64,000 nucleotides of DNA, taken from Thermoplasmata archaeon (GTDB taxonomy: Archaea; Thermoplasmatota; Thermoplasmata; GCA-020350865). The notes below the pieces were generated by a model. It made no database searches, had not been told where the DNA came from, and saw only the letters and a program-made list of their open reading frames with translations. The stretch is from positions 2,753,413-2,817,412 of the forward strand of contig CP070751.1 in the NCBI GenBank assembly GCA_020348445.1, read 5' to 3'. The first letter of the stretch is position 1. Every line of letters begins with the position of its first letter. The position numbers and the translations under genes are program-made. Positions 53,148 to 55,976 of the stretch are shown here, in pieces.

Positions 53148-54443
53148 TCAAGAATATCTCTTAAGAGGCTTTGAAAGATGTCTTCTTGCACAGACAGGCA
53201 CCTCATAGAATCCTTTTTTCATATCTCTTTTTACTTTCTCTAATTTTACATCTTCCTCTTTTACTTTAGCTCCGCATTTTATGCATCTGTAACCTGCGCC
53301 CCTTCCTATGGACTTCATCCTTTTTTTACATTTTTTGCAAACCGGATTTCCCACTTTTTCATATACATCAATCAGTTTTTTAATTTGTATCTTTTCTATA
53401 TTTATGGTCAATGGATATTCCCGCACTCCTCCATATACTGTGATCAAATCCCCAGGCTCCAGGGAGCGAATTAAAGTGCGGAACTCCTTTGTTGGTTCGT
53501 AGGCAGCACAGTCCATGGTTCCCCTATTTTTGATTTTGAATATGACATGTCCGCCTTCAATTGTCCTGGGTTTAGAACCTACCATACCAGAGGTTACAAC
53601 TGAGCTGTACTTGGAGATTTTACCAAGTGTCTTCTTATGCAAATGCTCGTCTGTTCCCTGGTTTGTCTCAAATAAGATCCATCTGTCCTTTTTTTCTGAT
53701 TTTATACTGTCCTTAGCCTTTAAAAGATCTCTTGGTTTATCTCCTCTTATACCGAATAAAACCGGGCATGGACTATTGGGTGTAATTGCCACAACCTTGT
53801 TGTGCATATCGTAGTTGTTGAAGGTCGAAGGGAACTTGCGGTCCATCTCAATTACTGAATGAGTATCAACCCTCCTTTTTGTTCCCCATCTATTTTTTTC
53901 CCTGTAAACTATGACTTCATAGGTTCTGTCCCTGGGATGCCATGAGATTGCAGATGTGGCACCAATAAGGCCCCTTTGGTTCTTGTACCCTTTGTAGCTT
54001 GCGTTGCCCATTTTCAATATATTTTTCACATCCTTTAGATTCACAACCTCCCGAACTGCCTTCCAGTATAGACCTGGGGTTGGCTTTTTTTCCATGACCA
54101 CAAATGCGGGATTCGTGTTTTTATCTGAAAACTGTGCATGTTCTTCCATAATCCTTTCGATTCTTTTTTTTACATTTGGAATTGCAACACTTCTTCCCCT
54201 GAGATAACCAAAATAATCCTTTTCCTCTATGTTTCCAATCAAGAACCTTTTTCCATTACCCTTTCCAAGCCTTACTGCAATGGCCCCGTTTCCCCTAGTC
54301 TTCCAAGGAATATTTGGATTCAGCCTCACCAGTCTAGGATAGCCTATGACATCATATTCTGCAAATTCTGTTATAAGTTCTGATGCCAAATACGTGGTGC
54401 ACATTGCAGAAACTGAATCAGTGTCGTCTATTCCGATATATAT
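53148..54443 (-). CDS. tiaS: tRNA(Ile2) 2-agmatinylcytidine synthetase
   Basis: IYIGIDDTD (upstream of the track start 54404), MCTTYLA, PRLVRLNPNIPWKTRGNGA, PCPVLFGIRG, TNQGTDEH, AAYEPT, C-terminal zinc ribbon; start appears to be ATA. Confidence 0.93.
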   Translation of the reverse strand: MYIGIDDTDSVSAMCTTYLASELITEFAEYDVIGYPRLVRLNPNIPWKTRGNGAIAVRLGKGNGKRFLIGNIEEKDYFGYLRGRSVAIPNVKKRIERIMEEHAQFSDKNTNPAFVVMEKKPTPGLYWKAVREVVNLKDVKNILKMGNASYKGYKNQRGLIGATSAISWHPRDRTYEVIVYREKNRWGTKRRVDTHSVIEMDRKFPSTFNNYDMHNKVVAITPNSPCPVLFGIRGDKPRDLLKAKDSIKSEKKDRWILFETNQGTDEHLHKKTLGKISKYSSVVTSGMVGSKPRTIEGGHVIFKIKNRGTMDCAAYEPTKEFRTLIRSLEPGDLITVYGGVREYPLTINIEKIQIKKLIDVYEKVGNPVCKKCKKRMKSIGRGAGYRCIKCGAKVKEEDVKLEKVKRDMKKGFYEVPVCARRHLSKPLKRYS

Positions 54444-54523
54444 GGAAAAACCTCCTCCTCTACATTTTAATTAGGTGGAACTTTTCCCCAAATCGCCTTC
54501 TTTGCCCAGTTGAAATTGATACT

Positions 54524-54724
54524 CTACTTCCATGACTCAAGGAAATTCTCAAGCGATCTGTCGTACGTTCTCTCTCCCTCAGGAGGAAACAGACATCCTG
54601 GAAGACCGCCTCTATTTTTATGATATTTTATGCACTCGCAGCACTTTCCTTTTCTTTCACAGGGCTCGTATGTGCAGCCGCAGTCAGCCTTGTTTGCCTC
54701 TATATTGCATTCCAAATTCCACAC
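54524..54724 (-). CDS. Small Cys-rich protein (DUF6485-like)
   Basis: CGCTYEPCERKGKCCECIKYH..LPGCLFP..ERTYDRS; GGGAGGT SD. Confidence 0.75.
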   Translation of the reverse strand: MWNLECNIEANKADCGCTYEPCERKGKCCECIKYHKNRGGLPGCLFPPEGERTYDRSLENFLESWK

Positions 54725-54791: not shown

Positions 54792-55976
54792 CTAAAAAGA
54801 GTGCCTCCTGTATACGGTATAAGCATCTCCTTCCCAAAAGAAGGTCCTGAAAAACATCCTCACAACCAAATAGAAAATCATCATGGTCGTGATGCTAATT
54901 GGTGCAAGCACGTAATAAAAAGACATACCTCTCTCCTCAATTATTTGACCCACCATATATCTGTATACCACGCAATAAACGTATCCTGCCGCCAAAATAC
55001 CCAAGGCTAGAATCCAAAAGAATCCAAAAAGGTAGATTATAATCCCTAAAATCAGCGCCACCTGAAATTGAAGGTTCTTTGCCACCATGGCAGGTACCTG
55101 GCTCCTTAATTTGTTATGTCCAAAAGAAGATATTGTTATAACCCAACGAACCATTTTATCTTTAGTCTGTGAAAAACTTGAAAAAGCCTCATTGGGATGG
55201 TTCAAATTGGCAAGTTGGCTATAGATATAATACCCAGAGTCAACCACGGCATCTGCTAAAATCAGATCATCATTGAACGCAGTGCCCCAGATTTTCGCAA
55301 TTTCCAGTTCATCGAACAGATTCCTTGAAATGGCAATTGAAGCCCCGGAGGCAAAGGGAGGAAACATCTGCTCTTTTAAGGTAAAGTTTGCAGTGAATGT
55401 AACAAGAGACACGGACTGGGCAATGAACTTCCCTGAAAAACCCTCTGGCTCTATGAAAAACGGTGAAGTTACGGCATCTATTTGCTTTCCATTTACAATC
55501 TCACCCAAAGGGGAGGTCATTTTGAAGATCCAATCTTCTGAGTAATTCACATCCGAATCCCCGAAAAGAAGCACCGCTCCTTTTGCATAAGCTGCCCCAT
55601 AAATCAGGTTGTGGCACTTGGCTATGTTCTTTTTGGGATCGTGCTCCCCTGATAAAACAACTTTTACATTTGGATATCTTCTAGTAAGTTCCCTGGCAAT
55701 GCGAAATGCGGAATGTGTTTTCTTCTCGGCAACGAAAATAACCTCGAAGTCGGGGTATTTCTGTCTGCATACTGATTTGAGATTCTTGTAAGTAGTCTTA
55801 TCCCTCTCCCTTATCGGGATGATCACAGAGATAGAGATATCTTTTTTTAGGAATTTCCGCAAGTTAGCTTTCCTTTTTACACGAAAAGCAACAAGAATCT
55901 GCCTAGAACCTACGAAAAAATATATTGAAAGTGCAATCAAGATAAGAGCTTCGAAGAGCATTTTCGCAATCACCAA
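54792..55976 (-). CDS. Membrane glycosyltransferase family 2 (ceramide glucosyltransferase-like)
   Basis: N-terminal TM, ISVIIP, FEVIFV, LLFGDSD, FNDDL, C-terminal TM helices. Confidence 0.8.
   Translation of the reverse strand: MVIAKMLFEALILIALSIYFFVGSRQILVAFRVKRKANLRKFLKKDISISVIIPIRERDKTTYKNLKSVCRQKYPDFEVIFVAEKKTHSAFRIARELTRRYPNVKVVLSGEHDPKKNIAKCHNLIYGAAYAKGAVLLFGDSDVNYSEDWIFKMTSPLGEIVNGKQIDAVTSPFFIEPEGFSGKFIAQSVSLVTFTANFTLKEQMFPPFASGASIAISRNLFDELEIAKIWGTAFNDDLILADAVVDSGYYIYSQLANLNHPNEAFSSFSQTKDKMVRWVITISSFGHNKLRSQVPAMVAKNLQFQVALILGIIIYLFGFFWILALGILAAGYVYCVVYRYMVGQIIEERGMSFYYVLAPISITTMMIFYLVVRMFFRTFFWEGDAYTVYRRHSF

What the first reader, a model, noticed from the sequence alone, without database searches (positions are those of the whole stretch)
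54405..54465. tiaS, the AUA-decoding enzyme, appears to start at an AUA codon
Seen: the conserved N-terminal motif xYIGIDDTD lies upstream of the first in-frame ATG (54404). Between an in-frame TAA and this motif there is no ATG, GTG or TTG. A strong SD (GGAGGAGG, 54451-54458) sits 7 nt before ATA (54441-54443), and codon 5 is also ATA. An out-of-frame ATG-TAG directly precedes the SD. Known: TiaS agmatinylates tRNA-Ile2 so it reads AUA, GIDDTD is catalytic, and infC uses an AUU start for autoregulation. Inference: non-canonical initiation that limits or feedback-tunes TiaS.
Basis: partly seen in the sequence, partly recalled or inferred. Interest (0 to 1): 0.72.

Follow-up and report, generated by a model that had tools for sequence, protein, structure and literature searches.

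The report
tiaS gene starting at AUA codon
The gene for the enzyme that lets archaea read the AUA codon really begins at an AUA (AUC or AUU in relatives) 7 bases after a strong ribosome-binding site, but it is one of a class of weak start codons in this Thermoplasmata lineage, not a self-sensing loop.

Summary
Observation confirmed. tiaS (window 54443-53148, minus strand) has no ATG, GTG or TTG between an in-frame TAA and the conserved IYIGIDDTD N-terminus. ATA 54443-54441 is the first near-cognate codon. It lies 7 nt after GGAGG(AGG)T, the modal SD spacing in this genome.

It is not an error. All five genomes of the genus carry ATA, ATC or ATT at that codon. So do four further Thermoplasmata families (16 of 85 genomes examined) and extra metagenome lineages. 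Each has a GAGG-core SD, and coding-type conservation begins exactly at the ATH.

Other tiaS genes carry ATG or GTG at the homologous position and mostly lack an SD.

The AUA-specific feedback idea is not supported. The third base drifts among A, C and U, codon 5 is not conserved as ATA, and AUA use in tiaS equals the genome average.

tiaS is not unique. At least six other genes of this genome need ATA, ATC or CTG starts by Pfam domain position, and three keep ATH across the genus. Other first-stage readers of this scan had flagged such starts in other genes of the same genome, not in tiaS.

Best reading: SD-anchored initiation by initiator tRNA at a near-cognate AUH codon, giving weak but sufficient expression. 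Public gene calls cut off the catalytic motif.

The parts
53148..54443 (-). tiaS coding sequence read from the ATA start (431 codons plus the TGA stop)
   Evidence: Pfam TiaS_TCKD covers residues 2-149 (profile 1-150 of 156, E 8e-46), TiaS_FLD covers 157-267 and Zn_ribbon_TiaS covers 366-407. A. fulgidus TiaS structures 4rvz and 3amt match at E 5e-98, and their residue 3 aligns with residue 1 here.
54441..54443 (-). ATA, the proposed start codon
   Evidence: It is the first near-cognate codon after the in-frame TAA and lies 7 nt after GGAGG. The homologous codon is ATA, ATC or ATT in 16 genomes and ATG or GTG in most others.
54450..54458 (-). Shine-Dalgarno GGAGGAGGT
   Evidence: It is complementary to the 16S 3' end CCTCC. 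A GAGG-core SD is present in 16 of 16 ATH-type tiaS loci, 14 of them at 7-nt spacing.
54471..54473 (-). in-frame TAA that bounds the frame upstream
54417..54428 (-). GAC GAC ACT GAT, the conserved DDTD motif upstream of the first ATG
   Evidence: The motif is invariant in the 16 ATH-type loci aligned, and the search pattern DD[TVSAC][DE] was found in all 88 loci classified.
54402..54404 (-). first in-frame ATG (Met14), the start used by public gene calls
   Evidence: The stored protein P0001 is 418 aa and begins MCTTYLA.
54429..54431 (-). codon 5, ATA (Ile of G-I-DDTD)
   Evidence: It is not conserved as ATA in relatives.
54460..54465 (-). out-of-frame ATG-TAG. It is not considered part of the mechanism.
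   Evidence: Present and absent from all relatives aligned.
54524..54724 (-). upstream small gene (DUF6485) ending 80 nt before the ATA. Co-transcription with tiaS is possible.
   Evidence: Pfam PF20095 at E 1e-6. No terminator-like site was found in the gap.

Best explanation
tiaS of this uncultured Thermoplasmata archaeon is translated from the AUA at 54443-54441. Shown: the gene is an intact TiaS whose conserved N-terminus lies upstream of any canonical start. The AUA sits at the genome's preferred distance from a strong SD. The same SD + 7 nt + AUH layout is conserved in relatives, with codon-type constraint starting at that codon. Inferred: the 30S subunit is held by the SD:anti-SD duplex, so the AUA lies in the P site, where Met-tRNAi (anticodon CAU) pairs with a third-position mismatch and the protein starts with Met. 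Also inferred: initiation is intrinsically weak, and the strong SD partly compensates, giving a low but sufficient dose of an enzyme that has one tRNA species to modify. Once the strong SD is in place, a return to AUG would overshoot, which would stabilise the AUH state. This start type is a class feature of the lineage, with several other genes using it. It has no specific link to AUA decoding by the TiaS product.
For: No canonical or other near-cognate codon lies between the TAA and the ATA. The Pfam TCKD profile starts at residue 2, and the solved A. fulgidus TiaS aligns from its residue 3.

The genus carries ATA, ATA, ATC, ATC and ATT. Families f15 (5 ATC), f17 (ATC, ATT, ATT), f21 (2 ATC) and f23 (1 ATC) carry the same, usually with an in-frame stop 4-13 codons upstream. 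Metagenome loci L141 and L142 also carry GGAGG + 7 nt + ATC.

An SD of at least 5 nt is present in 13 of 16 ATH loci but in only 6 of 72 canonical-start loci. 14 of 16 ATH loci have exactly 7-nt spacing, which is the modal spacing for GGAGG-ATG in this genome.

In codons 2-13, the variable sites by codon position are 5, 4 and 12 (of 12 each). The 30 nt upstream show 10, 8 and 10 (of 10 each), so coding constraint begins at the ATH.

Other genes of the genome need near-cognate starts by Pfam domain position: GatD-like, radical SAM, LplA, hydantoinase A, saccharopine dehydrogenase and a Pyr_redox protein. ATH is kept across the genus in hydantoinase, LplA and radical SAM.

In E. coli, AUA, AUC and AUU give 1-2% of AUG, and the products carry N-terminal Met (10.1101/063800). 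Weaker start codons associate with stronger SDs across prokaryotes (PMC5622118).
Against: There is no protein, Ribo-seq or transcript-end evidence. An AT-rich stretch (TAATTAAAAT, 54473-54464) about 25 nt upstream of the ATA could be a TATA box, which would put the transcript start near the ATA and leave the SD untranscribed. In two genus members an in-frame ATG lies 14 or 30 codons upstream and could also be used. The claim that the weak start is selected for low dosage is not demonstrated: ATG and ATH states interconvert at least 4-5 times on the TiaS tree, so the third base is not clearly barred from G. Related genomes are not independent samples.
Confidence: 0.85

Rival explanations
1. AUA-specific autoregulation. 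The AUA start and the AUA at codon 5 make tiaS translation depend on agmatidine-modified tRNA-Ile2, so the enzyme senses its own product.
For: In this genome the start and codon 5 are both ATA. AUA is the commonest Ile codon at 29.9 per 1000, so AUA decoding matters to the cell.
Against: Start codons are read by initiator tRNA. The start is ATC or ATT in 3 of 5 genus members and in all four other families with this layout, and those codons do not need TiaS. Codon 5 is not conserved as ATA. AUA frequency in tiaS equals the genome share. Dependence on its own product would be positive feedback, not homeostatic. Unrelated genes use the same start type.
Confidence: 0.03
2. Translation begins at the downstream AUG (Met14), as public gene calls assume, and gives a protein without the DDTD segment. 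Alternatively the gene is decaying.
For: The stored gene call is 418 aa from that ATG. No canonical start lies upstream.
Against: The 13 codons upstream are under codon-type constraint (third positions vary 12 of 12, first and second positions 5 and 4 of 12). They contain the invariant DDTD that opens the Pfam TCKD model and the solved structure. All four domains are intact and no stops occur.
Confidence: 0.02
3. Sequencing or assembly error: a true ATG misread as ATA, or an indel that hides an in-frame upstream ATG.
For: The genome is a single-contig assembly of unknown read type. Another gene (GatD-like) has ATA where a 92%-identical sister genome has ATG.
Against: Independent assemblies of four genus members, of four other families and of metagenome contigs all carry ATH at this codon. 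The upstream ATG is followed directly by TAG and is not conserved.
Confidence: 0.01
4. Leaderless or near-leaderless transcript. The AT-rich box about 25 nt upstream is the promoter, the mRNA starts at or next to the AUA, and the G-rich run is not used as an SD.
For: TAATTAAAAT lies 54473-54464. Three of five genus members have AT-rich sequence just upstream of the G-run. Canonical-start tiaS loci such as L176 and L177 look leaderless, with a TATA-like box near -31 and no SD.
Against: The GAGG core at a fixed 7-nt distance is conserved in 16 of 16 ATH loci from five families but rare in ATG or GTG loci, which promoter function does not explain. In other ATH lineages the TATA-like box lies further upstream, for example in L142. 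The literature read here describes leaderless mRNAs as carrying AUG, GUG or UUG at the 5' end (PMC7531240; PMC5622118).
Confidence: 0.05
5. Same initiation mechanism, but the AUH + strong-SD genes form a regulated set whose output follows start-codon stringency (aIF1, aIF1A or aIF2 activity, or growth state), by analogy with infC and IF3, rather than simply being weakly expressed.
For: ATH persists in tiaS over five families, and in hydantoinase, LplA and radical SAM across the genus. The pairing with a strong SD is unusual for a gene that merely needs low output.
Against: The genes found show no functional theme. Some ATH starts are species-specific: GatD-like has ATA against ATG in a sister genome, and the LplA orthologues of family f17 use ATG. 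ATG and ATH interconvert on the tree. Nothing here measures regulation.
Confidence: 0.15

Closest known systems
infC (IF3) and pcnB of E. coli, AUU start codons
   Same: An SD-led gene starts at an Ile-type near-cognate codon read by initiator tRNA, and the codon is conserved in relatives. By the source read (10.1101/063800) these are the only two confirmed non-canonical starts in E. coli.
   Different: This case is archaeal, with aIF1, aIF1A and aIF2 instead of IF3. All three AUH codons are used interchangeably. There is no evidence of autoregulation by a fidelity factor. The gene encodes a tRNA-modifying enzyme.
A. fulgidus TiaS (structures 3amt, 3amu, 4rvz)
   Same: Same four-domain enzyme. 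The N-terminus aligns from residue 3 of the solved protein, including GIDDTDS.
   Different: Only the initiation signal differs. Most Thermoplasmata tiaS genes examined, and the three Methanosarcinaceae ones, begin with ATG or GTG and mostly lack an SD.
Near-cognate initiation sites seen by ribosome profiling in Haloferax volcanii (PMC7261190)
   Same: About 30% of putative alternative initiation sites were near-cognates of AUG, so archaeal ribosomes can start at such codons.
   Different: Those were unvalidated alternative sites that the authors set aside. Here the near-cognate codon is the only possible start of a conserved essential-type gene and is conserved between families.
Start-codon and SD compensation in prokaryotes (Belinky, Rogozin and Koonin 2017, PMC5622118)
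   Same: Weaker start codons go with stronger SDs, which is the contrast seen between ATH-type and ATG- or GTG-type tiaS loci.
   Different: That survey found 1 AUG-to-AUU switch among 61,358 annotated AUG starts. Here at least 7 genes in one genome use near-cognate starts, and one of them does so across five families.

Membership tests
TiaS, tRNA(Ile2) 2-agmatinylcytidine synthetase | N-terminal kinase-like TCKD domain beginning with the G-x-DDTD strand | tested here: met
   PF22641 covers residues 2-149, profile 1-150 of 156, E 8e-46. The motif is at 54434-54417.
TiaS, tRNA(Ile2) 2-agmatinylcytidine synthetase | FLD, OB-fold and C-terminal zinc-ribbon domains in order | tested here: met
   PF08489 covers 157-267, PF01336 (below its cut-off) covers 285-354 and PF23783 covers 366-407. 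Full-length alignment to 4rvz and 3amt at E 5e-98.
TiaS, tRNA(Ile2) 2-agmatinylcytidine synthetase | A tRNA-Ile2 (CAU) substrate encoded in the genome, and AUA codons in use | tested here: inconclusive
   aragorn finds two elongator-type CAU tRNA genes, plus the intron-bearing initiator noted earlier, but they were not assigned to Met or Ile2. AUA occurs at 29.9 per 1000 codons.
TiaS, tRNA(Ile2) 2-agmatinylcytidine synthetase | Agmatine- and ATP-dependent modification of C34 | not testable with these tools
   Requires a biochemical assay.
SD-led near-cognate (AUH) start codon, infC/pcnB type | No ATG, GTG or TTG between the upstream in-frame stop and the conserved N-terminus | tested here: met
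   The same holds in 11 of the 14 further ATH-type genomes distinct from the window's own.
SD-led near-cognate (AUH) start codon, infC/pcnB type | SD complementary to the organism's 16S 3' end at functional spacing | tested here: met
   GGAGGT lies 7 nt from the ATA, the 16S end is CCTCC, and the modal spacing is 7.
SD-led near-cognate (AUH) start codon, infC/pcnB type | The non-canonical codon is conserved at the homologous position in relatives | tested here: met
   16 of 85 genomes from five families, and all 5 genus members.
SD-led near-cognate (AUH) start codon, infC/pcnB type | The protein N-terminus maps to that codon and carries Met | not testable with these tools
   Needs proteomics or initiation-site profiling. 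Codon-position variability supports translation from that codon.
SD-led near-cognate (AUH) start codon, infC/pcnB type | Autoregulation through an initiation-fidelity factor (specific to infC) | not tested
   No data. TiaS is not an initiation factor.
Rare-codon (AUA) self-sensing control | AUA specifically conserved at the start or early codons | tested here: not met
   The start is ATA, ATC or ATT, and codon 5 is ATA, ATC, ATT, GTC or GTA. There is no AUA bias in the gene.
Start-stop or frameshift leader element | Conserved upstream AUG-stop or slippery site | tested here: not met
   The ATG-TAG is present only in this genome.
Structured RNA leader (riboswitch or thermosensor) | Stable or known structure around the SD | tested here: not met
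   Fold z-score 0.12 and no Rfam match at E up to 1.

The most novel reading that the evidence does not exclude
This Thermoplasmata lineage has an enlarged working start-codon set. AUA, AUC and AUU, placed 7 nt after a strong SD, would serve as stable, heritable start codons for roughly 0.5-1% of genes. tiaS would be the oldest case found, having kept this state across at least five families. That would imply either a relaxed start-codon check in these archaea or a gene class tuned through initiation stringency.
Probability: 0.3. Interest if true: 0.65.

Novelty: new member of a known kind. Interest (0 to 1): 0.5.

Why it matters
1. Annotation. The public gene call for this gene is 418 aa and lacks the DDTD motif. 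Of the 120 closest protein clusters worldwide, 30 start at MCTT and 6 at MDDTD, for the same reason.

2. Archaeal translation. The review read here lists only AUG, GUG and UUG as archaeal start codons (PMC7531240). Here an AUH start is the only possible start of a conserved gene and is kept across families, always with an SD at one fixed distance. That gives a clean natural test case for SD-anchored near-cognate initiation in archaea.

3. Evolution. The contrast within one gene family, between an ATG or GTG start without an SD and an ATH start with a strong SD, illustrates two alternative initiation designs that replace one another.

4. It removes an attractive but unsupported story, that the AUA-decoding enzyme senses itself.

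Tried and rejected
- AUA-specific feedback: rejected on relatives and codon usage.
- Upstream ATG-TAG as a start-stop or frameshift element: not conserved.
- RNA structure or a known RNA family around the SD: none.
- Stop read-through or pyrrolysine as the reason for start-less coding extensions in this genome: the upstream stops are not enriched in TAG, 7 of 45 against 536 of 2640.
- A dedicated AUH-reading initiator tRNA: aragorn's 'tRNA-Ile(TAT)' call at genome 4641809-4641908 is a 94-nt, long-variable-arm model with a 6-nt 'intron' and is most likely a miscall. No initiator-like GAU or UAU tRNA was seen.
- Crude genome-wide counts of codons behind SD motifs were uninformative, because codons next to real ATG starts contaminate them. 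They were replaced by a coding-potential scan and Pfam checks.
- Bacterial-type promoter and terminator scan: nothing found, and not suited to archaea.
- Literature searches for a described non-canonical tiaS start: none found.
- Hydantoinase and LplA were tested for depth of ATH conservation beyond the genus. Hydantoinase orthologues were not found in the other ATH-type families. The LplA orthologues of family f17 use ATG.
- Two DNA look-ups (P0078, P0018) returned no DNA.

Full report
THE SEQUENCE. On the minus strand the frame reads TAA (54473-54471), TTA AAA TGT AGA GGA GGA GGT TTT TCC, ATA (54443-54441), TAT ATC GGA ATA GAC GAC ACT GAT and onward. No ATG, GTG or TTG lies between the stop and the motif. 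No other codon one mismatch from ATG lies there either, so the ATA is the first near-cognate codon. The first in-frame ATG is 54404-54402, where the mechanical ORF list starts its 418-aa ORF. GGAGGAGG occupies 54458-54451. The 16S rRNA of this genome ends ...GGATCACCTCCT, so GGAGGT (54455-54450) can pair over six bases. The last G of GGAGG is 7 nt from the ATA. Among genes of this genome whose first canonical start is ATG and which have GGAGG upstream, 7 nt is the modal spacing (85 of 261).

THE GENE. Read from the ATA, the 431-residue product matches Pfam TiaS_TCKD over residues 2-149 (profile positions 1-150), then TiaS_FLD, a weak OB fold and the TiaS zinc ribbon. It aligns along its length with the solved A. 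fulgidus TiaS, whose residue 3 (VWVGIDDTDS) pairs with residue 1 here. The protein therefore has to begin within a codon or two of the ATA.

THE ORGANISM. The window lies in a 5.16-Mb single-contig genome of 41.5% G+C. A same-genus contig is titled 'uncultured Thermoplasmata archaeon'.

RELATIVES. tiaS was found in 39 of 41 relatives and in 248 of 251 sampled genomes of the class. The class tally includes two unpublished genomes, G092 and G197. I read the start region in 85 Thermoplasmata genomes of 27 families and in three Methanosarcinaceae.

- At the codon three positions before the G or A of [GA]-x-DDTD, 16 genomes have ATA, ATC or ATT and no usable canonical start.
- These are all five members of the genus (ATA, ATA, ATC, ATC, ATT), family f15 (five ATC), f17 (ATC, ATT, ATT), f21 (two ATC) and one of two genomes of f23 (ATC).
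- In most of them an in-frame stop lies 4-13 codons upstream.
- Two genus members have a chance in-frame ATG 14 or 30 codons upstream, but that stretch is not conserved.
- All other genomes have ATG (47) or GTG or TTG (25) at or next to the same position.
- Two further metagenome lineages show GGAGG + 7 nt + ATC (L141, L142).

IS THE ATH REALLY THE START? Three lines of evidence agree.

1. SD. All 16 ATH loci have a GAGG-core SD, 13 with at least 5 matching bases, and 14 with the last G of GGAGG exactly 7 nt from the ATH. Only 6 of 72 canonical-start loci have a match of 5 nt or more. Sister groups show the same contrast: f17 against f9, f15 against f20, and the two f23 genomes. ATG-type loci such as L176 and L177 have a TATA-like box about 31 nt upstream and no SD, as near-leaderless genes do.
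2. Codon-position variability. Across 16 ATH-type loci, codons 2-13 vary at 5, 4 and 12 of 12 first, second and third positions. The 30 nt upstream vary at 10, 8 and 10 of 10 with no periodicity. Protein-coding constraint therefore begins at the ATH.
3. Position. The ATH is homologous to the ATG or GTG of other families.

These genomes are related and do not count as independent trials, but five families and at least four sister contrasts point the same way.

EVOLUTION. On a quick maximum-likelihood TiaS tree the ATH state needs at least 4-5 changes. ATH groups sit in three well-supported clades: (f1,(f20,f15)) at 98, (f17,f9) at 100 and (f21,f23) at 99. Each clade also contains ATG or GTG members. 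ATH and ATG therefore interconvert. I cannot show that G at the third base is selected against.

THE FEEDBACK IDEA. Start codons are decoded by initiator tRNA. AUC and AUU do not depend on TiaS, yet they are the commoner states. Codon 5 is ATA, ATC, ATT, GTC or GTA in relatives. tiaS uses AUA for 15 of 34 Ile codons, against a genome share of 37% (p = 0.38). AUA is the most used Ile codon in this genome at 29.9 per 1000. Nothing ties the start to AUA decoding.

tiaS IS NOT ALONE. A look-up of earlier notes of this scan showed that other first-stage readers had flagged ATA, ATC, ACG or CTG starts behind strong SDs in other genes of this genome. I tested this independently.

- A dicodon coding-potential scan of 2640 likely genes gave 44 of 2012 genes with a clearly coding-like, start-less N-terminal extension, against 3 of 628 controls whose first start is SD + ATG. 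tiaS was among them.
- For 20 candidates with an SD and a near-cognate codon, Pfam placed a domain upstream of the first canonical start in at least six. These are a GatD-like protein (ATA), a radical SAM protein (ATC), LplA (ATA), hydantoinase A (ATA, profile position 1 at residue 2), saccharopine dehydrogenase (CTG) and a Pyr_redox protein (ATA).
- With a strict SD register, ATA was the most frequent non-canonical codon (10; ATT 5, ATC 2, CTG 3, ACG 3). Canonical first starts scored under the same rule were 266 ATG, 61 TTG and 21 GTG.
- Across the genus, hydantoinase A has ATA, ATA, ATA, ATA and ATT, LplA has ATA, ATC and ATA, and radical SAM has ATC three times, each behind an SD.
- The GatD-like ATA faces ATG in a 92%-identical sister genome. 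The CTG faces TTG or ATG. The LplA orthologues of family f17 use ATG.
- So AUH starts are a stable minority class in this genus, and tiaS is the most deeply conserved case found.

CONTEXT FROM PAPERS. In E. coli, AUA, AUC, AUU and CUG initiate at 1-2% of AUG, their products carry N-terminal Met, and only infC and pcnB are confirmed non-canonical starts (10.1101/063800). A survey of 36 groups of prokaryotes found 1 AUG-to-AUU switch in 61,358 annotated starts and an association of weaker starts with stronger SDs (PMC5622118). A review of archaeal initiation names AUG, GUG and UUG only (PMC7531240). H. volcanii ribosome profiling saw near-cognate sites but set them aside (PMC7261190). I found no paper on a non-canonical tiaS start.

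MECHANISM AND VERDICT. The best-supported reading is SD-anchored initiation at a near-cognate AUH by Met-tRNAi. The steps shown are the gene's identity, the absence of any canonical start, the SD and its spacing, and conservation with constraint starting at the codon. The steps inferred are the tRNA used, the low efficiency, and the reason the state persists. The main open point is the transcript start, because an AT-rich box about 25 nt upstream leaves a leaderless reading possible at low odds. No RNA structure or Rfam family is involved.

Public gene calls truncate this protein and 36 of its 120 closest clusters.

Noticed in passing
L091, L092, L097, L101, L102, L106 (G000 genome 3724504-3725703, 2525449-2526504, 4584017-4585003, 4212111-4213310, 2603236-2604402, 3805530-3806729): Six other genes of this genome whose Pfam domains begin upstream of any ATG, GTG or TTG. 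Each has ATA, ATC or CTG at SD spacing. They are GatD-like, radical SAM, LplA, hydantoinase A, saccharopine dehydrogenase and a Pyr_redox protein.
   Followed up: partly
window 54446-54450: A run of five T lies between the SD and the ATA. Oligo-T can act as an archaeal termination signal. It is not conserved in the genus (TTTTACG and TTTATCA in relatives).
   Followed up: partly
L176:262-300 and L177:262-300: ATG-type tiaS genes of related Thermoplasmata have a TATA-like ATAAATAATTAATA about 31 nt before the ATG and no SD. This suggests (near-)leaderless transcripts, in contrast with the SD-led ATH type.
   Followed up: partly
L051 (G001:C1:2370700-2372800): The tiaS locus of the other single-contig genome of the genus is interrupted by 100 N after about 250 codons, so its apparent truncation cannot be judged.
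   Followed up: partly
G000 genome 3364176-3366122, 1486137-1487222, 1927039-1928652 and others listed: Several ORFs have 100-250 coding-like codons upstream of their first canonical start but no SD plus near-cognate candidate. They may be split or frameshifted genes or intron-like interruptions. Their upstream stops are not enriched in TAG.
   Followed up: no
G000 genome, whole: Among first canonical starts with a strictly registered SD, TTG (61) outnumbers GTG (21), an unusual order.
   Followed up: no
L111-L119 (GatD-like gene): G000 has two GatD-like genes. The ATA-start copy has 70-92% identical counterparts scattered over distant families (f2, f3, f10, f12) but not in most others, a patchy pattern that may reflect transfer.
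   Followed up: no
G000 genome 4641809-4641908 and 4643400-4643474: aragorn calls a 94-nt 'tRNA-Ile(TAT)' with a long variable arm and a 6-nt intron, probably a miscalled class II tRNA. It also calls a weakly folded CAU tRNA. Which CAU gene is tRNA-Ile2 was not settled.
   Followed up: partly
window 54524-54724 (minus strand): A small DUF6485 gene and then a family 2 glycosyltransferase (54792-55976) lie upstream on the same strand as tiaS. The 80-nt gap shows no terminator-like site.
   Followed up: no
L037, L038, L040 (family f20): These tiaS genes keep ATT at the old start position but have gained an ATG two codons upstream (M-T-I-A-I-G-I-DDTD) and have no SD. This looks like an escape from the ATH state by a new upstream start.
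   Followed up: no
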